Below are positions 48,352 to 64,000 of a stretch of DNA of 64,000 nucleotides, one piece after another. Where the stretch lies: NCBI GenBank assembly GCA_043826455.1, contig JBDRQD010000036.1, positions 24,795-88,794 on the forward strand, written 5' to 3'. Numbering within the stretch: the first letter of the stretch is position 1; every line of letters begins with the position of its first letter. The DNA is from Candidatus Bathyarchaeota archaeon (lineage in GTDB: Archaea; Thermoproteota; Bathyarchaeia; TCS64). A program made the translations under genes and the position numbers. The notes below the pieces were generated by a model. That model searched no databases. It was not told the DNA's origin and saw nothing but the letters and a program-made list of their open reading frames with translations.

Positions 48352-48410
48352 TGTTTCACCAAGGTGAAGTTAAAATCAGCCTTAAAATGAGTATCGGTCA
48401 TGGTTAAGGT

Positions 48411-48460
48411 GAGGCCTCGGACCCGCGGCCTACAACTTACGAGGCTGCGGCACTACCCCT
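48411..48460 (-). pseudogene. Degenerate tRNA-Thr copy
   Basis: GCCTCGG/ACCCGCGGCC/TACAACTTACGAGGCTGC/CTACCCCT matches both neighbouring tRNA-Thr genes, with an 11-nt T-arm deletion. Confidence 0.7.
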
Positions 48461-48506
48461 TAGTAGAGATGCGGGGGGCTGTGCCCCCTGAACGCTCTCA
48501 CGCCTC

Positions 48507-49287: not shown

Positions 49288-49363
49288 TGGAGCCCCGAGC
49301 GGGATTCGAACCCGCGACCTACAACTTACGAGGCTGCCGCTCTGACCGCTGAGCTACCGGGGC
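49288..49363 (-). tRNA. tRNA-Thr(CGT), CCA encoded
   Basis: Reverse complement GCCCCGGTAGCTCAGCGGTCAGAGCGGCAGCCT-CGT-AAGTTGTAGGTCGCGGGTTCGAATCCCGCTCGGGGCTCCA. Confidence 0.93.
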
Positions 49364-52605: not shown

Positions 52606-52610
52606 AAGGG

Positions 52611-52645
52611 TGGCGCCGCCATTCGGCGGTTGAACTCAGGTTAAC
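52611..52645 (-). other. Candidate att site: degenerate 3' half of a tRNA-Asn(GTT)-like gene
   Basis: The minus strand reads GTTAACC-TGA-GTTCAA-CCGCCGAA-TGGCGGCG-CCA, exactly at the host/element boundary. Confidence 0.45.
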
Positions 52646-52738
52646 TACACTCATTTTGATACGCTCCTGTGAAAGGTATACAGTATCGATACTTCCTTCC
52701 CTTCTAATAGGTTTACTTATTTGCACTATAATCATCCT

Positions 52739-53113
52739 CTACGTCGGTTTTGACATAACTCGTCCATCCCTTATGACCCACCCCTTCGCACGGAGAGGTT
52801 CCACCACCTTGGGAAGGCTCAATGCGAATCTGATATGTTCGCAGTCGGCCTCCTCGCATGCCTCGCAGTAGGGGCCTTCTCTGAAGTAGACGTCCACGAT
52901 CCGCTTCCTCAGGTTATCGTAGATGGTGGCGTGGTCGTCGTATACGTTGTAGTGGGTGAACCGGGGGTACTCGTCCTGGTACACCTTCATGAGGCAGTAG
53001 TCTACCGCGTGCTGGTAGTTGTGGAAGACCCGTTCACCTATCTTCTGGTCAATCCACTCCAGGACCTCGCCCTGGACGGTGATAGTTACCCTCTTCTTAT
53101 CCTCCTCGGCCAC
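52739..53113 (-). CDS. Ribbon-helix-helix regulator with a C-terminal CxxC-x4-CxH Zn site (repressor-like)
   Basis: RVTITV..EVLEWID...YQHAVDY (RHH) and YCEACEEADCEH. Confidence 0.7.
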   Translation of the reverse strand: MAEEDKKRVTITVQGEVLEWIDQKIGERVFHNYQHAVDYCLMKVYQDEYPRFTHYNVYDDHATIYDNLRKRIVDVYFREGPYCEACEEADCEHIRFALSLPKVVEPLRAKGWVIRDGRVMSKPT

Positions 53114-53128
53114 TTACACTCACCTCTC

Positions 53129-53194
53129 TGCATCAATTTTAATCAGTACACAGATATATGTTTTATGCCTCACGTTGATGCATTTAGCATCACG
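53129..53194. promoter_or_regulatory. Operator repeats between the divergent RHH genes
   Basis: TGCATCAA (53129) and TTGATGCA (53175) form an inverted pair; TGATGC-N5-GCATCA at 53176-53192; GCCTCACG/GCATCACG direct repeat 20 bp apart. Confidence 0.55.
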
Positions 53195-53239
53195 AATATA
53201 TTTAAATAGATTCTTAGGGTCTAGATCTGATGAGGATTG

Positions 53240-53428
53240 ATGATTTTGGTGAGGGTTACGGTGAGCGTGGATGACACCCTCATGGCCCAGATCCAGCGGC
53301 TGGCGGAGGCCGAGATGCGCAGCAAGGCCAACATGATGAAGATTCTCATCATGGAGGCCGTGGAGGCCAGAGACGGCCAGAAGACTGGAGCACACCGGGA
53401 GGGAGCGAAGCGTGGAAAGCAATGTTAG
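53240..53428 (+). CDS. CopG/Arc-type ribbon-helix-helix protein (Cro-like position)
   Basis: VRVTVSVDDTL...IQRLAEAEMRSKANMMKILI.EA. Confidence 0.85.
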   Translation: MILVRVTVSVDDTLMAQIQRLAEAEMRSKANMMKILIMEAVEARDGQKTGAHREGAKRGKQC

Positions 53429-53624
53429 AAGCGATAAAAACATGGGCGGCGCCGAGTCGCCGAGTGGCCGCGAGGAGGCCCTGACGCGGCTAACAGGATG
53501 GGAGAGAGCCTTCTGGGAGATGCTTCAAGAACGGAAGACGGTGCGCAGCGCCCAAGAGAACCAGGCTGAGAGCCTGGGCGGGGAGCCTGAGCCAGGGCAA
53601 GCGGTGGAGTGGTCTACGAGGTGA
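53412..53624 (+). CDS. Small viral hypothetical protein
   Basis: Overlaps the RHH gene within the early operon. Confidence 0.45.
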   Translation: MESNVRSDKNMGGAESPSGREEALTRLTGWERAFWEMLQERKTVRSAQENQAESLGGEPEPGQAVEWSTR

Positions 53625-53765
53625 CTGGAGTGAGAGACGGCTGATAAAAGCATGGGAGGGCGTGGAGCCTCGGGGGGTTGAAGCGTTTTGAAGGACCCCT
53701 CAGCCACCCGGGAGCTCCGCCATGAAGAGCGTCCTACGAGATTTAGAGGTATCGAAAAAGCGGGG

Positions 53766-54053
53766 ATGAGGCGTTTCATACTCACAGCCCTGGCCCCGCT
53801 CGGGGACAGCTTGGCTACTGCATGCACCCTATTAATGTTGAATGGGCTGGCCTGGATCGGCGCAGGAGTCTACTTGAACGCACCTTTCGGCCTGGTGGTG
53901 ACCTACGCCGCCATGGCCATCCTAGCGGTCCCCACCCTCGCCACCTACGCCCTGATACTGCTGACCTTATCGCTGGCATACAGGGTGCCCCTGAGCCTCG
54001 CGTTCCTCTACCCTGACAGGAGGGCCGAGTACCTTGAGGAGGCGTTGCCGTGA
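53766..54053 (+). CDS. Small viral membrane protein
   Basis: Hydrophobic segments; GTGA coupling to the next gene. Confidence 0.65.
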   Translation: MRRFILTALAPLGDSLATACTLLMLNGLAWIGAGVYLNAPFGLVVTYAAMAILAVPTLATYALILLTLSLAYRVPLSLAFLYPDRRAEYLEEALP

Positions 54054-54364
54054 GGACCCCAAACCCCATGATTCTGCGCTACAGGGTGCACATCAACATC
54101 GCCGCCATGGCTCTCATCGCCCTAGGCCTCCTGACCGCTTTTGACACCCGATACCAGAATGCGGGGGCAGTGCTCCTCTTCGGCACCTTCCTAGCGTGGA
54201 TACACCTGCGCGGCAGGATCAGGCCCCAGGTATCCGACTACACAGAATACCTAGAAGCCCTAGCCAAGGAGGAGGGACACGATAACTGGCTGCATAGCGC
54301 AAACCAGCGGTTCATGACGCTATGGGACATCGAGGACCTGAAGGAGGTTGACCAGGGTGTCTGA
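54050..54364 (+). CDS. Small viral two-TM protein
   Basis: GGAGG SD, GTGA overlap and two TM segments. Confidence 0.7.
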   Translation: MRTPNPMILRYRVHINIAAMALIALGLLTAFDTRYQNAGAVLLFGTFLAWIHLRGRIRPQVSDYTEYLEALAKEEGHDNWLHSANQRFMTLWDIEDLKEVDQGV

Positions 54365-54479
54365 ACAGACTCCAAGCCTGAGGTGGCTGGCCACCCTGAT
54401 CGACGAGAAGAGTGGGTCTACGGCTCCTGCCAAGGCGGCAGCTACGGCTGGGCTCTTCACAGGAATTGGAGGGAGCTAG
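54357..54479 (+). CDS. 40-aa viral ORF (MSEQTPSLRWLATLIDEK...)
   Basis: GGAGGT SD; fills the gap in the operon; below the ORF-track cutoff. Confidence 0.45.
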   Translation: MSEQTPSLRWLATLIDEKSGSTAPAKAAATAGLFTGIGGS

Positions 54480-54480
54480 C

Positions 54481-54972
54481 CTGACCCGACGGATAACCCT
54501 CACAGCCAAGCAGCTGAAGCAGGTCCCCGGCTACAAGACCACCCTCACCGTGGACCGGCTCAAGGGCATGGTGGCTGGGCTGCTAACGGAGGCGGGCCTG
54601 GACTACGCCATGGTGAAGCGGGACGGATCCGACATGGTGCTCATCGAGATGGTCCTGGACACCGGGGACACGGGCACCAAGCGGGTGGTCCATTTCAAGC
54701 TGGAGGTGCCCCAGGTCTATCAGGAGATGAGGCGGGGACCGGTTAAGCCATTGCCTGAGGCGGGGTGGCGGTTCTTCTACGACTACCTGGAGCGCCGCAT
54801 ACAGGCCGTGAAGCTCGGCATCACAGACCTCGTGGAGGAGTTCACCGCTAACATCGTCATGCAGCTCCCCGACGGCAGGCAGGGCACCCTGGGCGACTCC
54901 ATCAAGCTGAGCATAGTGGACCCGAGCCAGGCCATGCTACCCTTCATCCAGCAACGGGAGGCCCAAGCATGA
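54481..54972 (+). CDS. Viral hypothetical protein (possible CTG start)
   Basis: Open frame from 54412; the GGAGG SD lies upstream of CTG 54481; WRFFYDYLERRIQAVKLG motif. Confidence 0.7.
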   Translation: MTRRITLTAKQLKQVPGYKTTLTVDRLKGMVAGLLTEAGLDYAMVKRDGSDMVLIEMVLDTGDTGTKRVVHFKLEVPQVYQEMRRGPVKPLPEAGWRFFYDYLERRIQAVKLGITDLVEEFTANIVMQLPDGRQGTLGDSIKLSIVDPSQAMLPFIQQREAQA

Positions 54973-55313
54973 CGCCGCTACCAAGCTATTACTCAATGAC
55001 TGTGAAAGAGCTTTACCAGCGCATCCGAGACCTCTACCCCGGCATAGACTCACGGCCCCTCGTCATCAGTGTGCCCCCGAACAGCTACCGTAAGGCTGAC
55101 TACATCTACATAGACCACCACGGGAGCCCCCCCAAGGGAGGAGCGATCTACGACAAGGCCCGCCGACACCTGTACTTGCTGAGTGTGGGGCTGGACCGTA
55201 AGTACCGCGTCGGATCAAACGTGCAGCTACCGGAGCTTGACGCCCTAGAGGTAGGATTCTATCTCTGGACAATTGAGGACAGCGTGACACCCTATAGGGA
55301 GGCCGAGGTATGA
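54969..55313 (+). CDS. Viral hypothetical protein
   Basis: ATGA coupling on both sides. Confidence 0.7.
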   Translation: MTPLPSYYSMTVKELYQRIRDLYPGIDSRPLVISVPPNSYRKADYIYIDHHGSPPKGGAIYDKARRHLYLLSVGLDRKYRVGSNVQLPELDALEVGFYLWTIEDSVTPYREAEV

Positions 55314-55600
55314 GTGAGCAGCCAATCGTTGTCGAGGCTAGGTGTCGGGTGTGCGGGCGCCGACTCACCAAGCTTGAGAGCGTGAAGATTGAGATCGGCC
55401 CCGTCTGCAAGAGGAGGCTGGAAAGCATCCAGCTTCTCGACCAGTTCACGGAGGATGCCATGAAGAGCCAGGAAACGCCTGTCTTCGAGGATGAGGCTCC
55501 GCCCACCTGTCCCCGGTGCGGCCAGGTTAGCCCTAACCCCAACCGCTGCCCATCATGTGGCTCACCAATCAAGGCCAGGCCCCGGGAGGTGGCGGCGTGA
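55310..55600 (+). CDS. DUF6011-like Zn-finger protein with a second Zn ribbon
   Basis: CRVCGRRLT..ES....IGPVC and CPRC...CPSC. Confidence 0.75.
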   Translation: MSEQPIVVEARCRVCGRRLTKLESVKIEIGPVCKRRLESIQLLDQFTEDAMKSQETPVFEDEAPPTCPRCGQVSPNPNRCPSCGSPIKARPREVAA

Positions 55601-55788
55601 ACCTGTGGAGGCGCATCAGGATGAGGCTAAACGGCCACATCTACGTCGGCGACAGGCAGAAGCCCGGGTGGAGAGGCCCACTGCCCCACTACGCGTTCCG
55701 GTGTCCCATCCACGGCCCCGTGGAGAGCTATCCTCACGGCTACGAGGGGAGACTGGAGTGCCCCATCTGCATGGAGGAAACGGTGTGA
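55597..55788 (+). CDS. Small Zn-finger protein
   Basis: CPIHG...YPHG...LECPIC; GGAGGT SD; GTGA overlap. Confidence 0.7.
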   Translation: MNLWRRIRMRLNGHIYVGDRQKPGWRGPLPHYAFRCPIHGPVESYPHGYEGRLECPICMEETV

Positions 55789-56006
55789 GCCAGATACGTA
55801 GACAGATACGGGACGCGGTGGCGGGGCTCCGAGGAGACTTCAAGAGCCTCACCAAGGCCGTGTTCTGGACCACCCTCGGCAGCCTAGCCACACTATACGC
55901 GGCTGCCCCCGAGGCCCAGCTAACCAGGCAGGTGCTGCCCCTAGAGGTTGGCCTGCTCATCGGCATGGCCCTGGGTTACCTCAGCTTCGGGAGAGAAGAA
56001 CCATGA
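55785..56006 (+). CDS. Small viral membrane protein
   Basis: GTGA overlap, GGAGG SD and two hydrophobic segments. Confidence 0.65.
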   Translation: MSQIRRQIRDAVAGLRGDFKSLTKAVFWTTLGSLATLYAAAPEAQLTRQVLPLEVGLLIGMALGYLSFGREEP

Positions 56007-56143
56007 CGCAGGAGAAGATCAACAGCGAGGACAGGTGCCCCCCAGCCTTCACCGAAGCATGCGTGCTGGAGGACGGGACCCGGTGCCCCTACTACCACGA
56101 CGGCGAGTGCGTCAAAGCCCCAGAGGAGGCTGATGGGCAGTGA
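56003..56143 (+). CDS. 46-aa Cys-rich viral ORF (MTQEKINSEDRCPPAF...)
   Basis: ATGA and GTGA overlaps with both neighbours; four Cys. Confidence 0.55.
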   Translation: MTQEKINSEDRCPPAFTEACVLEDGTRCPYYHDGECVKAPEEADGQ

Positions 56144-57255
56144 CGCAGGAAACCAGCATAGTTGAGGCTTCCAAGGCCCCGGCGGGTGACCTTCTGCCCA
56201 TCCTGGACCCGAAGGCCGCCAAGGCGGCGTACCAGGCGTACCTGGAGCTGTGCCAGGCCATCCTTGTGCCCTACGACAAGCGCATCGTCAGAGACGGCGT
56301 GGTGATCCAGGAGAGCGACTACGCCCGTATACCCGTCAGGCGCCAGGTGGGCGGCAGGTGGATCACGGAGTACGTGGACGCCCCCAAGAAGTCGGCTTGG
56401 CGTAAGCTGGCCAGGTTCTACGGCGTCAGCACCGAGATCGTGGAGAAGAGCAAGGAGGTCCACAAGGACGGCAGCTTCACGTACCACTACTCGGTGCGGG
56501 CCTCTGCCTGCGGGGTGAACATGGAGGGTGAGGGCAGCTGCACCAGCACCGAGAAGGGAGGCAGGAGCGAACACGAGACCCGAGCCACCGCCCACACCCG
56601 GGCCAAGAGCCGGGCCATCAGCGACCTGATAGGCTTCGGCCAGGTGAGCGCCGAGGAGTACAGCACATACGAGGATGATCCGCCGCCCAAGCCGGTGGAG
56701 GCAGAGACCCACGTCGTGGAGCCCACACCCAGGGCAAAGGCGGAAACCAGTGCCGAGAAGCCCGTCGTTGACACTGCTGAGAAGACGGTTAGAGACACCC
56801 TCACGGTTAACGGCCTGGGGGCTGATTACGTTCTCATCTACAGGTACGGGGACATTGTGCGTGTCGAGCCTCAGCCGGGGTTCCCTGATAGGTGGGGGGA
56901 CTTCAACAGGGTTCTGAGGCTCCTGAAGGCAGTGTGGATCGACGAGTCTTTATGGTGGGAGGTGCCCGCAGGCGACCTTGAACACCTCACCGACAGCGAG
57001 GACGAGGAGTTGGTGTACGGTATCTGGGGTGTGGACTGGAAGCTTAAGGGAGGTGAACCCGCCTTACGGGACTCTTCGTGGGCGTGGGCTTTCGCCTACA
57101 CCCAAGACGGAGATTACGTGCAGGAGCTCAAGCCCCTCGTACAGTACCTGGAGCAGTACGGCAGCCTGGAGACCCAGGGCTACACCGTCACCCTGGGAGG
57201 CCGAGACAAGAGCCTCCTGCAGCTGAAGAAGAACAAGGAGGCGAAGACCGGGTGA
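56140..57255 (+). CDS. Putative single-strand annealing (Rad52/RecT-superfamily-like) recombination protein
   Basis: KKSAWRKLA...EGEGSC...ATAHTRAKSRAISDLIG..VSAEE core, then a P/E/T-rich linker and C-terminal domains; located in the replication module. Confidence 0.5.
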   Translation: MTQETSIVEASKAPAGDLLPILDPKAAKAAYQAYLELCQAILVPYDKRIVRDGVVIQESDYARIPVRRQVGGRWITEYVDAPKKSAWRKLARFYGVSTEIVEKSKEVHKDGSFTYHYSVRASACGVNMEGEGSCTSTEKGGRSEHETRATAHTRAKSRAISDLIGFGQVSAEEYSTYEDDPPPKPVEAETHVVEPTPRAKAETSAEKPVVDTAEKTVRDTLTVNGLGADYVLIYRYGDIVRVEPQPGFPDRWGDFNRVLRLLKAVWIDESLWWEVPAGDLEHLTDSEDEELVYGIWGVDWKLKGGEPALRDSSWAWAFAYTQDGDYVQELKPLVQYLEQYGSLETQGYTVTLGGRDKSLLQLKKNKEAKTG

Positions 57256-58190
57256 CAGAGCCCGAGACTAGGACAGCTGACCTCTGCCCCGAGTGCGGCG
57301 CCTCCCTCCTCCAGGACGATGTCGCCGGCGAGGCGGTGTGCCCGGTGTGCGGCCTAGTGGCCTCAACCCTTATGCTCAGCAGGGGGGCCGAGTGGAGCCT
57401 ACACGAGCCCAGCGACCATGACAGCCTGCCCAGGGCCTCGCCCCTCCTAGTCCCAGCGCTGGCAGCCGACACCACCACCATAAGCAGGTTCTGGAGCCAC
57501 CCCGACCCCGAGACCCGAGCCACCATGCACCGCATCACCCGGATCCAACGCAAGCTCATGGACTCCCAGGACCGCAACTATCACGAGGCCCGAAACATCC
57601 TCATGGCCCTGGCGGACAGGGCAGACACCCCATGGAGGCTGCGCCAACACGCCGCAGCCCTCTACCGCAGAGCACACGTACGCGGCCTGGCTAAGGGCCG
57701 CGCCATCCACAGCATGGTGGCGGGCTGCATATACGCGGCATACCGCCTAGGCGCCCACACACGAACCCTCACCGAGCTGGCGGAAGCCATGGACGTGGAC
57801 CCCAAGGACCTGGCCCTCACTTACCGCCTCCTGTGCACCGGTTTAGGACTCCGCCCGGGTAAGCAGCTGGCCGAGGACCACGCAGCCAGGCTGGCCGAGG
57901 CCCTGCACCTGACGCCTGAGGAGACGCGGGCAGCCCAGGATATGCTGGTGGAGGCCCGCCGCCTGAAGCTCACCGCAGGTCAGCACCCCAGGGGGCTGGC
58001 CGCAGCAGCCGTCTACCTGGCCACGGTGAACACCAGGCCGCATGGGAAGAGGATCAGCCAGAAGATGATAGCCGAGGCAGCCGGTGTCACCGAGGTCACC
58101 GTCAGGAACCAGTACAAGAAGCTCGAAAAAGTCCTCCCCTGTTTTACCAGTTTTACCATCCTTACCGTTTACCAACAAATCGAAGGATGA
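57252..58190 (+). CDS. tfb: Element-encoded transcription initiation factor IIB (TFB) homolog
   Basis: Zn ribbon CPEC...CPVCGLV, GAEW B-reader, two cyclin folds (KGR...AGCIYAA; G..P.GLAAAAVY) and HTH ISQKMIAEAAGVTEVTVRNQYK. GTG 57252 overlaps the upstream stop. Confidence 0.92.
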   Translation: MTEPETRTADLCPECGASLLQDDVAGEAVCPVCGLVASTLMLSRGAEWSLHEPSDHDSLPRASPLLVPALAADTTTISRFWSHPDPETRATMHRITRIQRKLMDSQDRNYHEARNILMALADRADTPWRLRQHAAALYRRAHVRGLAKGRAIHSMVAGCIYAAYRLGAHTRTLTELAEAMDVDPKDLALTYRLLCTGLGLRPGKQLAEDHAARLAEALHLTPEETRAAQDMLVEARRLKLTAGQHPRGLAAAAVYLATVNTRPHGKRISQKMIAEAAGVTEVTVRNQYKKLEKVLPCFTSFTILTVYQQIEG

Positions 58191-58335
58191 TCTCTTGACA
58201 CCGCACCCCTGGGCTCTACCCGTCTCCCCCACGGATTTTTTTCCCGAGGAAAAAGCGGTAAACAGTAAAAACGGTAAAACCAGTAAAAATCCGAGTCGTC
58301 TTTTACCAATTTTACCAGCCTTACCGTTTACCAGT
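58142..58335. repeat. Iteron array: three blocks of four TTTACC-like repeats (+,-,+); candidate replication origin
   Basis: Blocks at 58142-58174 and 58301-58333 are 31/33 identical; block 58255-58289 is an inverted, more diverged copy; 8-9 bp period. Confidence 0.75.
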
Positions 58336-58375
58336 CATCCGGGAGGCTACCGGGCTGGGTGAGTGGAGCCGCTAC

Positions 58376-60286
58376 ATGAACCCGGTGCTAAGGTTCTACG
58401 TCGTTGAGCACCTGTTCACCAAGGTCCAGGCCACCCACAGCAACCGCCTACAGGGCATAGAGCCCCTGTGGAGCATCTACGCGGCCAAGATGGAGAACGA
58501 GTACCCGCCCATCCTGATATTCGACAAGGAGCGCCGGCTGCGTCCTCAGAGCAGGGAGCTGTGCCTTGCGCCCATAGACGAGTCCGACGGCCTCCTGGAG
58601 TACGTAGGCGGGCTCTCGCCGGCAGCCTACAAGCAGCTAGTCTCGGCCATCAAGGAGAACGGCGTCTACGTTGAGACGGGTGAGGACGCCCCCACCCTGG
58701 ACCAGCTTCTAGCCCGCAGCGGCATATGCTACCGGCCCGTATCACGCATCAGGGACATCTACGAGATTGAGACCCTGGAGTGGGAGCCCTTCGTGGACAG
58801 GCTGATCCGGTGGGACGCCGAGGAGAAGGACCCCCGCCTCTGCCTGGCCCACAAGGCCCAGCTACTCAGGGGCATCGAGCCCAGGCTTAACGCCCACGCC
58901 CTCATAGTCACCAACGCCGGCACCGGGAAGAGCATCCACTACCAGGTGAACGGCATCCCCATAGACAAGGCCACCAAGAACGCCTTCCTGGGCTACGCTA
59001 AGAGCCCCCGCGAGGTTTACAAGGGCACCGTGGACGGCGAGGAGCTTCCCATCGGGGTGGACCAGATCGAGATCGGGGCCTGGGGTATCATGGACTATAT
59101 GTTCAACATCATGGAGTATGGGGAGGCCACGGTGAGCAGCGGGGCCACAAAGTTCCCCGTGAAGAGCTGGTCGCCTTATGCCTTCATGGCGAACCCGCTG
59201 ACGGACGTCGTGAACGTGGAGAAGAGCTTCGGCATCCTCATGGACCACATAAGCAGGAACCCCGCCATAGGTCGACGCTTCGGCGTCCTCATCTACGGCA
59301 CCGACTACGCCATCATCAAGACTAGGAGCACCCCTGAGAGCCTGGATCAGTGGAGGCGTCAGACGGCCTTCTTCCGGGCCATAGAGGAGGCCGCCAGGCC
59401 GGAGCTCCAGAGGATCATGTGGAGCCAGGAGGTGTGGGACTGGATCAATCGTGAGATTCAGGGTTATGCGGAGCGCATGGATCGCATCGCCAAGGGCTGC
59501 AACGACGACACTATACGGGTCTTTTTCATGGAGCATGGGCGGGCTGGGCAGTCGAGGGTAAGGGCGGCGGCCCTTCAGGTGAGCCTAGTGGATTATCTTC
59601 AGGACATAGCCCTTGGCCGGTATAGCTTAGAGGCTATCCTTGACCACGCCGAAGAGGTTCTGCCGGGCTTCACCAGGCTCAACTTGGAGTCGGCTATCAA
59701 CATCGTCCGGAACATCGGGGACGAGAGGCGGTTCATGGCGGAGCACTGGCTGGAGATGTGCCCAGAGTACATGAAGGAGATCGTGTACGCCGTCGAATAC
59801 GCACGGCGAAGCAGTGTGTTGGGCAGCTTCTTCAACCTGGGTGACATAGATTACAGGCCTGCCGCTGAGGGTTACAGCCACCTGAGCGTCTGCATAAGCA
59901 AGCTGGTCAAGCGCAAGCGGGGCCTGGTGGAGTGGAACCAGAGGTGCCGGGAGTACTTCGGGTTCAGCTTTCAGCCCCAGGGCAGCCAGCTACAAGTCAT
60001 CCTGGAGAGCCGCACCCCCGTCGAGTGGTTAAGCCTACCCGGCTACGACAAGCCTAAGGTAGAAGAAGGGGAGGCCGAGACGCCCCACGCGTCCAACATC
60101 CAGGACCTCTACCGTAAGGCGGAGGAGGCGCTAGGGGAGAAAGGCTGGATGTGGGCCGGAGAGTTCTGGGACACCCTGGAGAAGCTAGGCCATCCGCGGA
60201 AGTACGCGGAGTACCCGCTGAAGAACCCTGATAGCCCCGTTGAGTTCGTTGGGTTCAAGGTTCGGCTCAAGGAGGTGAGGCAGTGA
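58376..60286 (+). CDS. Divergent MCM-like AAA+ helicase
   Basis: HALIVTNAGTGKS (Walker A), VDQIE (Walker B), IMEYGEATVSSGA (pre-sensor-1), MANP (sensor 1) and RRF (Arg finger) appear in MCM order. Confidence 0.7.
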   Translation: MNPVLRFYVVEHLFTKVQATHSNRLQGIEPLWSIYAAKMENEYPPILIFDKERRLRPQSRELCLAPIDESDGLLEYVGGLSPAAYKQLVSAIKENGVYVETGEDAPTLDQLLARSGICYRPVSRIRDIYEIETLEWEPFVDRLIRWDAEEKDPRLCLAHKAQLLRGIEPRLNAHALIVTNAGTGKSIHYQVNGIPIDKATKNAFLGYAKSPREVYKGTVDGEELPIGVDQIEIGAWGIMDYMFNIMEYGEATVSSGATKFPVKSWSPYAFMANPLTDVVNVEKSFGILMDHISRNPAIGRRFGVLIYGTDYAIIKTRSTPESLDQWRRQTAFFRAIEEAARPELQRIMWSQEVWDWINREIQGYAERMDRIAKGCNDDTIRVFFMEHGRAGQSRVRAAALQVSLVDYLQDIALGRYSLEAILDHAEEVLPGFTRLNLESAINIVRNIGDERRFMAEHWLEMCPEYMKEIVYAVEYARRSSVLGSFFNLGDIDYRPAAEGYSHLSVCISKLVKRKRGLVEWNQRCREYFGFSFQPQGSQLQVILESRTPVEWLSLPGYDKPKVEEGEAETPHASNIQDLYRKAEEALGEKGWMWAGEFWDTLEKLGHPRKYAEYPLKNPDSPVEFVGFKVRLKEVRQ

Positions 60287-60741
60287 GCTTTCCCAGGACC
60301 CTGTGGAGCAGCGAAAAGTCTGATTGGGGCACACCACTGGAGCTTTACCATGCTCTGGACAGCCACTTCAGGTTCACTCTTGACCCCTGCACCACGCCTG
60401 ACAACCCTCTGGGGACGCCGAAGTACTACACAGTGGAGGACGACGGGCTGGCCAGGAGCTGGGCTGGGGAGCGGGTGTTCGTTAACCCGCCTTACAGTAG
60501 GCGCAGAGACGAGCCGGCCGCATGGGTTAGAAAAGCCTATCTTGAGGCACTTAACGGCGGAGCGGTGTGTGTACTGCTGCTGGCGGCCCGCACCGACACC
60601 GCCTGGTTCCACGACTACTGCAGCCACGGGCTCATCGGCTTCATCCGGGGCCGCCTCAGGTTCCGTGGGGCCAGGAGCAGCGCGCCCTTCCCCAGCATGA
60701 TCGTTGTCTTCGGGGAGGGCTACTGGAGGCTGGAAAGGTGA
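60283..60741 (+). CDS. Phage-type DNA N6-adenine methyltransferase (Dam family)
   Basis: DWGTP, FTLDPC, VFVNPPYS, ARTDT.WF, GRLRF and APFPS motifs. Confidence 0.9.
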   Translation: MSFPRTLWSSEKSDWGTPLELYHALDSHFRFTLDPCTTPDNPLGTPKYYTVEDDGLARSWAGERVFVNPPYSRRRDEPAAWVRKAYLEALNGGAVCVLLLAARTDTAWFHDYCSHGLIGFIRGRLRFRGARSSAPFPSMIVVFGEGYWRLER

Positions 60742-60917
60742 TCCGCAGCTTCGAGGCAGCCGTTGGATGGATCCCTGAGAGGATATGCGGAGAGTGTAGT
60801 TGGATACGTGACTATTGTGGTCGGCAAGTGTGTTATCACGGAGGCCAGGTGGGTAGAACCGTCCGGGGAGACGAGGACGCTACTTTCTGCGAGGGCTTCG
60901 AGGAGGCGGATCTGTGA
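60738..60917 (+). CDS. Small Cys-rich viral protein
   Basis: CGEC...C...C.H...C; GTGA coupling. Confidence 0.6.
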   Translation: MIRSFEAAVGWIPERICGECSWIRDYCGRQVCYHGGQVGRTVRGDEDATFCEGFEEADL

Positions 60918-61153
60918 GAGACTTGGACATGGAGCTGGTTGAGGTCTACCGGGAGCAGCTTCTCAGGGTGGCCGAGTCCAGAGACCTTTCAGCCTTAGGC
61001 AAGGAGGACATGGCCATACTGAGGGAAGCCGGAATCCTCGTCGATTACCTTGACTGGAGGAGTGGCGCCACCTACACTGGGCTAAGCCCATGGGCCCGCC
61101 GCCAGGTGCTAGGGCTCCCCAAGGCTAGGATCATGAAGTGGAGGGCGGGATGA
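60914..61153 (+). CDS. Small viral protein (winged-helix-like)
   Basis: LREAGIL...LSPWARRQVL; coupled overlaps. Confidence 0.6.
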   Translation: MRDLDMELVEVYREQLLRVAESRDLSALGKEDMAILREAGILVDYLDWRSGATYTGLSPWARRQVLGLPKARIMKWRAG

Positions 61154-61431
61154 TTAGCAGGCTGTCGGGCAGGGTGTTCATGGAGATCAGGGTCGAGCTG
61201 CCTGACGGGAAGCGTGACCTGTACAGTCTCATTAGTAGCTTGGAACGTTACGATGTGGAGATATGGGATGAGATCTATCGGAGGAGGCCGGATAGCCGGG
61301 GCCGTATGGCTTACCGGGAAGCGGAGATCACACTGTGGGTGGACTCCGAAGACTACAAGGCCTTATGCATCACGCTGGGCAAGTTGGCTGGAAACGTAGA
61401 GTACACAACAGTCAAACCAAGAAACAGGTGA
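61150..61431 (+). CDS. Small viral hypothetical protein; last gene of the early operon
   Basis: ATGA overlap and GGAGG SD. Confidence 0.6.
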   Translation: MISRLSGRVFMEIRVELPDGKRDLYSLISSLERYDVEIWDEIYRRRPDSRGRMAYREAEITLWVDSEDYKALCITLGKLAGNVEYTTVKPRNR

Positions 61432-61605
61432 TCTGTGGGTAAAATTAGAGTCTTTACGGTTTGAAAAAAGACATATGTAAACGCATGTGTTCTATCAGGC
61501 TTCATAAATCAATATGAGAACTGTTAATGCTTTATCCGAAACGAATTGTGCGAAGTACATTATTTAGTTAATTAGATATTAACTTGTCTATTTTGAAACT
61601 TTATT

Positions 61606-62571
61606 TTATCTCATTGAGTCGCGAGGAATGTATGGAGAAATTGTTAGAGGTTCAAGTTTCTTCTTTTTAGTTATCATGTCTTCTCGTAAAATCTCAACAC
61701 CAAAGTAATTATCCAATTTACGCTGAATTGCACCTACCTTCTCCAATCTTCTGAGGATCTGGTTTAAACGCATTGGGTTAATATTTCTGCCATAATATTT
61801 TTTATATGAATCAGCTATTGAGGGTTTATTCCTGTAAACAGGCTCCTCCATCTCTAATTCTGGAAGATATATAACACTATCAACCCCAACTGTTTTTTCC
61901 AATATAGTAAGGCCAAATTCATCTCTAAGGGTTGGATACCTAATCTTAATTATATGTGAAAGAAGACTTTTCAGTAACTCCTCATCGGATTTAGATGCTT
62001 TTTCAGTAGAAATGTAAACGTTAGCTGGTACAAAATATGGTTCTTCATATCTAACAATGCCTAGGCTTTCCATTAAATTTACATATCGTCTGATTTTCAG
62101 TTTTTGTTCTTGGGGCTCATACCTTGTCAGATCAGCCTCATGAATTTTATTGTTCTCCATTAAATATTCGAGAATCAACTCAATTTTGTTGAAATGGTTT
62201 CTAAATGACTCAATTTGAATTAATTGATCTGACGAGGCGGAAACCACTATGTTCTCAGCTTGTTGTTTCCAATACTCAAGCATCATTTTAAGATTTTTCA
62301 AACATTCAGTTCCGTAGGTCGTTCGTGTCGGAATTATCTGGAATTGATCATTAAGTGTAATTTGTCCTAGATGCTCTATTTTTAAAACTCGAACTTTATA
62401 ATCAGCTGGTTCTCGATCATCAAAGATGTAGACAGGGTAGTTAGCTCTGATATTTGACAAGTAATAGTTGCCTTTATTGATATACATGGGTGGATCTACC
62501 TTTATGACCTGGCCATATTCTTTAAAGGCAAACCTTTCAACGACTGATTGAGCATCCAATATACTTGTCAT
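61606..62571 (-). CDS. AT-rich hypothetical protein with two winged-helix-like segments
   Basis: IRRYVNLMESLGIV and RLNQILRRLEKVGAI; GGAGG SD lies within the upstream gene's end. Confidence 0.75.
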   Translation of the reverse strand: MTSILDAQSVVERFAFKEYGQVIKVDPPMYINKGNYYLSNIRANYPVYIFDDREPADYKVRVLKIEHLGQITLNDQFQIIPTRTTYGTECLKNLKMMLEYWKQQAENIVVSASSDQLIQIESFRNHFNKIELILEYLMENNKIHEADLTRYEPQEQKLKIRRYVNLMESLGIVRYEEPYFVPANVYISTEKASKSDEELLKSLLSHIIKIRYPTLRDEFGLTILEKTVGVDSVIYLPELEMEEPVYRNKPSIADSYKKYYGRNINPMRLNQILRRLEKVGAIQRKLDNYFGVEILREDMITKKKKLEPLTISPYIPRDSMR

Positions 62572-62574
62572 GTC

Positions 62575-63120
62575 TCATTCCTCCCCCAAGTTAATCAATG
62601 TTTGTTGACCGGTACCACCTATTATTAACTTTATCAACATACCTTTAGGCCCCAACCGTTCTTCCATAAAATGACTTGACTCAGCTTCTCTTTGCCAATA
62701 CTCTTCTTTTTTATAAAGTGGATCTACAAAAAAAATTTTTCTTAGATCTGGGTCATACCCATTAATTACAACCACATGCCAGACATCATCATTGACGATT
62801 TTCTGGGGATCAATCCAAGCTATAATAGGTCTTTCGTCATCAATTTCAGCAGTGATTTCCGTATATCTCCCTGATATTTGTCTCTGAAATTGCATTTTAG
62901 GCCTGGATTTATCTAATAAATTATTGATGAATTCTACATTCCCCGGAACAGTGCCCCAATCTCTTTCTGTACCAATGGTTTTAGCAATTTTACGCATCGA
63001 TAATTTTTTTTGTTTAATATGAAATTTGTCAATTGTATAATTTGTTACAATTTTATAACATGTTGGTTGGCAATACATTTCTTCTGGTTGATGAAAATAG
63101 GGTAGTTTTATCAGCGGCAA
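62575..63120 (-). CDS. C39-like (papain-fold) cysteine peptidase, no signal peptide
   Basis: LPYFHQ.....C (Q-x5-C), RPII, HVVVINGYD and DP motifs. Confidence 0.8.
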   Translation of the reverse strand: MPLIKLPYFHQPEEMYCQPTCYKIVTNYTIDKFHIKQKKLSMRKIAKTIGTERDWGTVPGNVEFINNLLDKSRPKMQFQRQISGRYTEITAEIDDERPIIAWIDPQKIVNDDVWHVVVINGYDPDLRKIFFVDPLYKKEEYWQREAESSHFMEERLGPKGMLIKLIIGGTGQQTLINLGEE

Positions 63121-63460
63121 AGACCTGAATCACATCTTAATAATTTATAATGCATGTTTTTACTATTAATTTATTTTGTCATTGAAACGTATGTGGAAAG
63201 CTAGCTGATCCTGGTTCCAACCTAGGCCTTTTGGCGGGTGGTGCTGAGAAACTGGCCTGTGTGTTGGGTAGTGGCTACACGGGGGGGTACGGTTTGGTAT
63301 GGTATGTGGGGTCGGGAAGCTGGGGGTCTTGTGACTACTTTTTCTTTTAGCTTTTCTCAGTTGAACTAAGATAGTTAACGTGTTTTCAATAAGTTGTCCA
63401 TTTTTTTATTTATCTCTGATTTTTGTTCTTTCGCGATTTTGAGGTAACTTCGTTTAAATC

Positions 63461-63591
63461 TTTATAAGGTGTGCAGGGCAGCCGCCCTCGATTCGGTTGA
63501 CCGCGGCGAGCCGTACAAGAGTAGCTTCTTCCTACCCAACATCTTCGCTGTTAGCAGCTCATCGCGGCCAGCTTGAACACAAGGAGGAAAA
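63461..63591 (+). promoter_or_regulatory. TATA promoter, structured ~100-nt leader and strong SD
   Basis: TTTATAA at 63461; stem CCGCGGCGAGC (63501) / GCTCATCGCGG (63557); AGGAGG at 63582. Confidence 0.5.
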
Positions 63592-64000
63592 ATGGAATTG
63601 AATGAAACACGCCAAGCCCATGTAAAGCGCATACTCACAGTTGCATTCATACTCGGCCTAGTGTTCGCATCCCTAGGCTTCAGCGGAGTCATAACGATAC
63701 CCCTTGCCGAGGGTGCAGCAGCCAGGGTCTTCTTCTCGGCGGTGAGCCCCGACGCAAGCGGCTACCCCGTAGACGGGGCGGTGGGCATCAACGTCAAGTT
63801 CAAGTGGGAGGGCCTATCCGCCAACACCACAGTGAACATACAGCTCTGGAACGCCACCAACATGATGGAGGACCTGGGCAACTACACCGCCAACGGAGAC
63901 GCCTCAGCCAGCGGCACCGAGACCGTCCAGTACACGCCCACCGTGGAACTCACAGAGGAGACCGGCACCACAAGCTACACCCTGAAGATGCTCAGCGGCG
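63592..64000 (+). CDS. Secreted or membrane glycoprotein-like protein, partial; candidate virion protein
   Basis: Not in the ORF track. MELNETRQAHVKRILTVAFILGLVFASLG... has a hydrophobic N-terminus, then a Thr-rich beta-like region with NTT, NAT and NYT sequons; open to the window end. Confidence 0.75.
   Translation, partial: MELNETRQAHVKRILTVAFILGLVFASLGFSGVITIPLAEGAAARVFFSAVSPDASGYPVDGAVGINVKFKWEGLSANTTVNIQLWNATNMMEDLGNYTANGDASASGTETVQYTPTVELTEETGTTSYTLKMLSG

What the first reader, a model, noticed from the sequence alone, without database searches (positions are those of the whole stretch)
52611..64000. Integrated archaeal virus-like element with a temperate-phage-style layout
Seen: gene organisation changes abruptly at about 52.6 kb. 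A divergent regulator pair is followed by about 17 co-oriented ORFs joined mostly by [A/G]TGA overlaps, then recombination and replication genes, a methylase, antisense AT-rich cargo and a new promoter driving a secreted protein. Known: switch, early genes, replication, cargo and late genes is the usual order in temperate viruses. Inferred: this is a provirus of a probably uncultured archaeon, and may belong to an undescribed lineage.
Basis: partly seen in the sequence, partly recalled or inferred. Interest (0 to 1): 0.8.

Follow-up and report, generated by a model that had tools for sequence, protein, structure and literature searches.

The report
Capsid-less virus-like element in Bathyarchaeia
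A mobile DNA element sits in a tRNA gene of an uncultured sediment archaeon and belongs to an apparently undescribed family that carries a conserved set of membrane proteins but no recognisable capsid, so it most likely spreads as a membrane-wrapped virus-like particle, although no particle has been shown.

Summary
Integration is confirmed. Window 52610-52626 duplicates the 3' end of tRNA-Asn, whose intact copy lies beside an integrase on contig C67. In 21 of 24 same-genus loci the flanking gene directly abuts the intact tRNA. The window holds the left arm: an RHH regulator, small overlapping ORFs, a TFB homolog, a repeat-rich origin candidate, a divergent MCM-like ATPase, Dam and AT-rich cargo. 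The window ends at the contig end. Overlapping contigs continue into an operon of membrane-anchored proteins (one modelled as Ig-like), an Rce1-type protease, a giant protein, and an FtsK-HerA ATPase homologous to ORF375 of virus PAV1. No capsid, portal or spike family was found. The MAG holds at least four related copies with swapped replication genes. The module is syntenic in many metagenome loci and was not found in IMG/VR. Best reading (0.55): a temperate, non-lytic, enveloped virus-like element of an undescribed family. Main rival (0.27): a pT26-2-like DNA-transfer plasmid. No particle, circle or expression was shown. The scan noted a similar layout in another genome (e1-5614577), with no sequence match found.

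The parts
52610..52626 (-). attL core: duplicated 3' end of tRNA-Asn(GTT)
   Evidence: 17-bp exact match to C67:2147-2163, the end of tRNA-Asn c2148-2225, next to a 400-aa tyrosine integrase; empty site in relatives
52739..53113 (-). Divergent 124-aa ORF, putative repressor (inferred from position)
   Evidence: No Pfam hit; 90% identical copy at the left end of sister element C12
53237..53428 (+). Ribbon-helix-helix regulator
   Evidence: PF07878 E 2.5e-9; PHROG Arc-like repressor E 1.7e-6
53412..56143 (+). Run of small early ORFs (membrane, Zn-ribbon/DUF6011, unknown); most shared with sister elements
54358..54484 (+). Broken small gene: internal deletion with frameshift relative to the 75-77-aa copies in C37 and C56
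56140..57255 (+). 371-aa conserved mobile-element protein; single-strand annealing role is only a recalled resemblance
   Evidence: 498 homologs at E<=1e-6 among 653 candidates; 48 of 55 aligned members hit phrog_22961, function unknown; no PDB match
57252..58190 (+). Element-encoded TFB (TFIIB) homolog: Zn ribbon and cyclin repeats kept, B-reader/linker region diverged
   Evidence: PF00382 E 3e-24; 31-37% identity to 10 host TFBs, which are 40-86% identical to each other
58130..58345 (.). Candidate replication origin: direct-inverted-direct array of short repeats upstream of the MCM-like gene
   Evidence: 10 motif copies in 216 bp vs 0.12 expected (motif read from this region); same layout with a different unit upstream of the 65%-identical homolog in L045
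58376..60286 (+). 636-aa P-loop ATPase, probably a divergent MCM-type helicase
   Evidence: Motif order aligns with host MCM but weakly (hhalign probability 0.6%; MCM3 E 0.32); no Pfam MCM hit; occupies the slot held by PrimPol + D5 helicase in sister C20
60283..60741 (+). Dam-family adenine methyltransferase
   Evidence: PF05869 E 6e-23; orphan MTase model
60738..61431 (+). Three small ORFs closing the early operon
   Evidence: the last has a weak homolog just before the late operon in L105
61606..63120 (-). AT-rich cargo pair: C39-like peptidase (62575-63120) and a 321-aa unknown (61606-62571)
   Evidence: PF13529 E 4.5e-12; homologous pair on C31; no PADLOC hit
63453..63591 (+). Late promoter and 5' leader with a possible long-range stem (63492-63505 with 63563-63577)
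63592..64000 (+). First gene (S1) of the late membrane-protein operon, cut by the contig end; continues on C1
   Evidence: 141-bp exact overlap with C1; S1 lies directly upstream of S2 in 28 of 28 metagenome loci with enough upstream DNA

Best explanation
This is the left arm of a temperate, non-lytic, membrane-enveloped virus-like element of Bathyarchaeia, roughly 30 kb if complete (not assembled). Shown: a tyrosine integrase lies beside the intact tRNA-Asn and the tRNA 3' end is duplicated at the other boundary; a conserved late operon encodes mostly membrane proteins, an Rce1-type protease and an FtsK-HerA ATPase; replication modules differ among sister copies. Inferred mechanism: the divergent regulator pair holds the element silent. 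On induction the integrase excises a circle and the MCM-like ATPase starts replication at the repeat array upstream of its gene. The element's own TFB shifts host RNA polymerase towards the late promoter. Doubly anchored Ig-like proteins form an envelope patch, the Rce1-type protease frees one anchor, and the ATPase loads DNA into a particle that buds without lysis. Basic-leader proteins, including a giant protein ending in a sliding-clamp-like domain, would travel with the DNA.
For: att core and empty site. A complete relative in G154 spans 13.8 kb between 32-bp direct repeats with the same layout and an opposite-strand integrase at the far end. Late gene order is conserved in most of 17 long loci examined. 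The ATPase family matches PAV1 ORF375 over its length (E 1.4e-30 among 101 proteins). In relatives the same slot holds ATPases whose only hits among 50,697 phage records are pleolipoviruses, PAV1 or spindle-shaped APSV1. A domain of the giant protein matches APSV1 orf32-325 (E 3.5e-6 among 3972 ORFs). TFB homologs occur in archaeal viruses (PMC13700489 passages). No relaxase or VirB4 family hit appeared among the late-module proteins scanned.
Against: No known virion protein was identified. The S2 model is a generic Ig-like sandwich (best Z 9.9, MspA rim domain) and the 88-aa two-helix protein matched nothing. ORF375-type ATPases also occur in plasmids pTN2, pP12-1 and pIRI48 (PMC3543421 passage). 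The pT26-2 plasmid family has the same architecture and is not known to make virions (PMC6972569 passages). No relative was found in IMG/VR. Contig depth in run X1, possibly the source sample, is similar for element and host (about 10-17 vs 15-18), so no replication is seen. One early gene is broken. The MCM call is weak. Which late module and which right end belong to this copy is unresolved.
Confidence: 0.55

Rival explanations
1. An integrative plasmid like pT26-2 or pR1SE: the membrane module and HerA-type ATPase form a DNA-transfer channel or load ordinary membrane vesicles, with no defined virion.
For: pT26-2 elements are 17-38 kb, have a core of 12 genes with 9 membrane proteins and a HerA/B204-like ATPase, and vary in replication genes (PMC6972569 passages). 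The ATPase profile hits t26-14p (E 2.4e-8), and the 88-aa protein weakly resembles t26-9p (E 0.0035; hhalign probability 10%). Best PDB hits of the ATPase profile are HerA translocases.
Against: The ATPase is far closer to virus PAV1 ORF375 than to t26-14p (E 1.4e-30 vs 2.4e-8). No other pT26-2 core gene matched at E<0.01. The long early operon with regulators, Dam and TFB is virus-like (inference).
Confidence: 0.27
2. A defective or domesticated element whose membrane operon now serves the host, for example as surface proteins or superinfection exclusion, and which no longer moves.
For: One broken early gene; flat depth; sister C37 and the G154 element show no recognisable replication gene. 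A similar retention of core genes is reported for pT26-2 (PMC6972569 summary).
Against: The att core is an exact match, the integrase and large ORFs are open, at least four copies have different flanks, and nearly all same-genus loci examined show the empty site.
Confidence: 0.12
3. A conventional head-tailed or icosahedral provirus whose capsid genes lie in an unassembled gap.
For: The element is split over contigs at collapsed repeats. Some ATPase family members hit a PHROG labelled terminase large subunit (32 of 93, best E 4e-11), probably through the shared P-loop.
Against: Four late modules were read gene by gene without capsid, portal or tail hits. The att-bounded G154 relative leaves no room for such a module.
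Confidence: 0.04

Closest known systems
Pyrococcus abyssi virus 1 (PAV1, NC_009597)
   Same: Homologous ATPase over its full length (ORF375). A long co-oriented block of membrane proteins ends in the ATPase beside a large soluble protein.
   Different: No membrane protein matched, including ORF121. The record is 18 kb, circular and annotates no integrase. No TFB, Dam or Rce1 gene is annotated.
pT26-2 plasmid family (Thermococcales, Methanococcales)
   Same: tRNA-linked integration, conserved membrane-protein core with HerA-type ATPase, variable replication region (PMC6972569 and PMC2926602 passages).
   Different: Only the ATPase matches among the seven core genes. Reported only from those two orders. 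SSV-type split integrase there, intact integrase beside the tRNA here.
Pleolipoviridae (e.g. HHPV3, SNJ2)
   Same: Non-lytic, often integrated (PMC13107129 passages). One relative (L183) carries a pleolipovirus-type NTPase.
   Different: No match to the HHPV3 structural proteins. About ten membrane proteins here; genomes there are about 7-16 kb.
'Huangdiviridae' and other spindle-shaped viruses (Fuselloviridae, APSV1)
   Same: A Bathyarchaeia provirus with integrase next to an ATPase (PMC10848311 passages). The G154 relative has an APSV1-type ATPase. A giant-protein domain is shared with APSV1.
   Different: No VP1/VP3 or VP2 homolog was detected by PHROG scan or fold search.

Membership tests
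Integrated mobile element (tyrosine-integrase type) | att duplication of a tRNA 3' end, with integrase beside the intact tRNA | tested here: met
Integrated mobile element (tyrosine-integrase type) | Empty site in relatives | tested here: met
   tRNA-Asn in 22 of 24 same-genus loci (2 end at the gene), directly abutting in 21
Caudoviricetes (incl. 'Fuxiviridae', 'Kunpengviridae') | HK97 capsid, portal and terminase genes | tested here: not met
   No capsid or portal hit in Pfam/PHROG scans of the late-module proteins; the ATPase is HerA-type. Caveat: this copy is not closed.
pT26-2 plasmid family | Seven core genes t26-5p, 6p, 7p, 11p, 13p, 14p, 15p | tested here: not met
   Only t26-14p matched clearly; t26-7p gave one marginal hydrophobic hit (E 0.01-0.03) and the rest none
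pT26-2 plasmid family | Membrane-protein core plus HerA-type ATPase with variable replication region (works-like) | tested here: met
Pleolipoviridae | Spike/fusion protein of about 500-600 aa (size recalled) | tested here: inconclusive
   No HMM match to HHPV3 VP3 (best E 0.11) and no PHROG hit; only S2 and S3 were folded
Pleolipoviridae | Conserved NTPase | tested here: inconclusive
   Met in relative L183; the G000 ATPase is PAV1-type
Spindle-shaped viruses (Fuselloviridae, 'Huangdiviridae', PAV1) | Two-helix hydrophobic major capsid protein | tested here: inconclusive
   88-aa protein has two hydrophobic helices but no sequence or fold match
Spindle-shaped viruses (Fuselloviridae, 'Huangdiviridae', PAV1) | ORF375- or B251-type ATPase | tested here: met
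   not diagnostic, since plasmids carry it too
Conjugative element (T4SS) | VirB4 and relaxase genes | tested here: inconclusive
   No such family hit among proteins scanned; the single ATPase has weak TrwB/DUF87 hits
Any virus | DNA-containing infectious particle | not testable with these tools
   No culture, virome or raw reads; only assembled contigs were laid

The most novel reading that the evidence does not exclude
These elements are a new family of enveloped archaeal viruses with a virion type not seen before. About ten doubly anchored Ig-like and multipass proteins, matured by the virus's own Rce1-type protease, would replace any capsid or known fusogen. Cargo proteins would be selected by a shared basic N-terminal leader, among them a giant protein that delivers a sliding-clamp-like domain. 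Capsid-marker pipelines miss the family.
Probability: 0.35. Interest if true: 0.85.

Novelty: new variant of a known kind. Interest (0 to 1): 0.62.

Why it matters
Bathyarchaeia are abundant sediment archaea, and the four virus families proposed for them are tailed, filamentous or spindle-shaped (PMC10848311 passages). This family matches none of them by the markers tested and was not found in IMG/VR. It sits between enveloped viruses (PAV1, pleolipoviruses, APSV1) and capsid-less membrane-protein plasmids (pT26-2). It offers a defined gene set, att sites and promoter for testing how such membrane modules move DNA, which is still open for pT26-2. Single features such as a viral TFB are already known.

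Tried and rejected
Standard tRNA scan found no tRNA at 52.6 kb; the att was found by exact-match search. A relaxed intron-tRNA scan gave only noise. IMG/VR scans with the ATPase and the S2 alignment found nothing. tblastn of the G000 ATPase gave only weak hits in the phage set (E 0.2-0.4) and none in plasmids; the 636-aa ATPase gave none in phages. Fold searches of S2 and S3 listed no capsid or fusogen, which does not exclude them. A three-copy complex prediction of S2 returned no verdict. A suspected likeness of the S8 C-terminal domain to t26-15p was not supported. Fylgjavirus was rejected as a relative because it encodes a double jelly-roll capsid (bioRxiv 10.64898/2026.02.13.705702, section 8). 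RNAalifold found no consensus fold for the late leader. No CRISPR array was found in G000 by a simple script, so no spacer test was possible. No RNA holder was listed. Laid contigs showed no attP or attB junction among the rows displayed (tables truncated). PADLOC gave no hit for the cargo pair. The single-strand-annealing label for 56140-57255 could not be confirmed. Literature searches found no description of this family. No supplementary tables were read, so unclassified members could be listed among the 56 genomes of PMC10848311 or the proviruses of PMC13573593.
Full report
Setting. The window is G000:C36:24795-88794 and ends at the contig end. The genome is a 2.95-Mb MAG, 97.7% complete and 7.2% contaminated. 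All 11 named genome records holding the element's ATPase are Bathyarchaeia, and earlier notes call this genome Bathyarchaeia, so I take that as the host class.

Observation. 18 co-oriented ORFs run from 53237 to 61431; 12 of 17 junctions are 4-bp overlaps, against 243 of 2015 genome-wide by a simple gene caller. Database-supported genes are an RHH regulator, a TFB homolog, Dam and a C39 peptidase. The two antisense cargo genes have GC3 near 0.3 against 0.80-0.84 for the four other genes measured. The 371-aa ORF belongs to a large family tied to phage clusters of unknown function; calling it an annealing protein is a recalled resemblance only. The 636-aa ATPase aligns with the MCM core motifs but only weakly.

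Integration. Window 52610-52626 is identical to the 3' end of tRNA-Asn(GTT) on C67, where a 400-aa tyrosine integrase abuts the tRNA. The gene upstream of the element has homologs in 27 of 31 same-genus genomes. Of 24 loci fetched, 22 contain tRNA-Asn and 2 end at the gene. In 21 of the 22 the tRNA follows directly; one has a 0.9-kb insert. In 13 of the 22 the downstream DNA matches the gene that follows the tRNA on C67. The element therefore splits a conserved host locus. An independent assembly contig bridges the left junction, but that run may be the source sample.

Beyond the window. C36 and sister C37 both overlap C1 by 141 bp; C52 and C20 join C8 or C49. The MAG thus holds at least four related elements with different left flanks (C36, C37, C12, C56). 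Sister contigs have depth similar to the host in run X1 (14.9 and 16.1 vs 15.5-17.8), which fits co-residence but does not prove it. The replication slot holds TFB plus the MCM-like ATPase in C36, PrimPol plus D5 helicase in C20, a 752-aa protein in C52 and nothing recognisable in C37. A direct-inverted-direct repeat array lies upstream of the MCM-like gene, and a relative has the same layout with another unit; I read it as the origin.

Late module. It encodes S1, S2, S5, S6 and S7 (about 270-470 aa, hydrophobic anchor at both ends), an 88-aa two-helix protein, a four-pass protein, an Rce1-like protease (PF02517, E 2e-7), a 394-aa membrane protein, a 138-aa protein, a 1668-1704-aa giant protein, an ATPase and a short tyrosine recombinase. 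Membrane helices were called by a simple hydropathy window. The giant protein ends in a domain 25% identical to host gene C31:6482-7240 (E 3e-10), which I recognise as PCNA from recall. A basic leader followed by a G-x-G-..-P motif was found in 6 rows (5 distinct proteins) and in 0 of 2512 host proteins; the pattern was derived from those proteins, so this is a lead only.

Family. S2 has 63 homologs and 66 metagenome loci. S1 lies directly upstream in 28 of 28 loci with enough DNA, and the order S1-S2-(88-aa)-(four-pass)-S5-protease-S6-S8 recurs, with some losses, in 15 of the 17 loci of at least 8 kb examined; the other two end after S1/S2. The ATPase was found in 10 of 401 class genomes, one of them a weak partial hit. 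The S2 profile was found in 2 of 401 phylum genomes, both in this class. IMG/VR gave nothing. G154 carries a complete 13.8-kb member between 32-bp direct repeats; seven of its proteins were scanned and gave only ATPase and integrase hits.

What the module resembles. The S2 model (pLDDT 75) is an anchored Ig-like sandwich with no capsid match. The 88-aa model is helical and unmatched. The ATPase is FtsK-HerA type and homologous over its length to PAV1 ORF375. In relatives the slot holds pleolipovirus-, PAV1- or APSV1-type ATPases. Against a virus: such ATPases also occur in plasmids (PMC3543421, passages), and pT26-2 plasmids share the architecture (PMC6972569 and PMC2926602, passages), though only their ATPase matches clearly.

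TFB. The protein keeps the Zn ribbon, cyclin repeats and C-terminal helix but diverges in the B-reader region (domain names recalled). Virus-encoded TFBs are known (PMC13700489, passages), so this is not novel. It is present in one of the four copies, so it is accessory.

Mechanism and odds. Enveloped, non-lytic temperate virus-like element 0.55; plasmid-like transfer system 0.27; defective or domesticated 0.12; conventional provirus 0.04. Integration, gene content and conservation are shown. Induction, replication, protease maturation, packaging and budding are inferred.

Literature seen. Passages only: PMC10848311, PMC5569661, PMC13700489, PMC6972569, PMC2926602, PMC13107129, PMC3543421, PMC13573593. 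Abstract and section 8: bioRxiv 10.64898/2026.02.13.705702. Searches found no description of this family. No supplements were read, and most subscription papers are outside the library.

Verdict. A real tRNA-integrated element and an apparently undescribed family, filed as a new variant of the archaeal membrane-module mobile elements. Interest 0.62.

Noticed in passing
window 63492-63505 with 63563-63577: Possible long-range stem in the late-operon leader. For a 13-pair stem read from the window sequence, 8 pairs change on both sides and 78% of cells pair (0 of 500 shuffles as high), but RNAalifold predicted no structure. Could gate translation of S1.
   Followed up: partly
window 54358-54484: Gene broken by a deletion between short repeats with a frameshift; the next ORF lacks the GTG start of its sister copies.
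   Followed up: yes
G000 contigs C57, C69, C46 (three), C19, C72, C15 (two), C9: The host MAG encodes at least 10 TFB homologs besides the element's copy.
   Followed up: partly
G000:C67:29371-44085: A second, smaller integrative element (integrase-like gene, 515-aa ATPase-like ORF, short recombinase 79% identical to the one in C11) followed by RHS/YD-repeat-like ORFs, named from recall.
   Followed up: no
G000:C31:9654-16237: A homolog of the peptidase cargo pair lies next to weakly PglZ-like and other defence-type genes, suggesting the cargo is a defence or toxin-antitoxin unit.
   Followed up: partly
L004:900-1040 and G000:C2 near 86463; L006:4458-4532: Sister copies sit at other tRNAs: an intron-containing tRNA-like gene on C37 with an 18-bp repeat on C2, and tRNA-Ala on C56. 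In both the integrase is at the left end, unlike this copy.
   Followed up: partly
G000:C59:20378-20599 and C54:9478-9714: Solitary homologs of early ORF 55597-55788 in ordinary host context.
   Followed up: no
L183:5833-8703: A distant member carries a 956-aa late protein with a glycoside hydrolase family 76-like domain, a possible receptor-binding or surface-degrading part.
   Followed up: no
window 48400-48470: A diverged partial copy of the tRNA-Thr 3' half lies about 850 bp from tRNA-Thr at 49288, around a small membrane gene; possibly an old integration scar (seen output).
   Followed up: no
G000:C42: A 5151-bp contig whose ends overlap, so possibly a small circular element.
   Followed up: no
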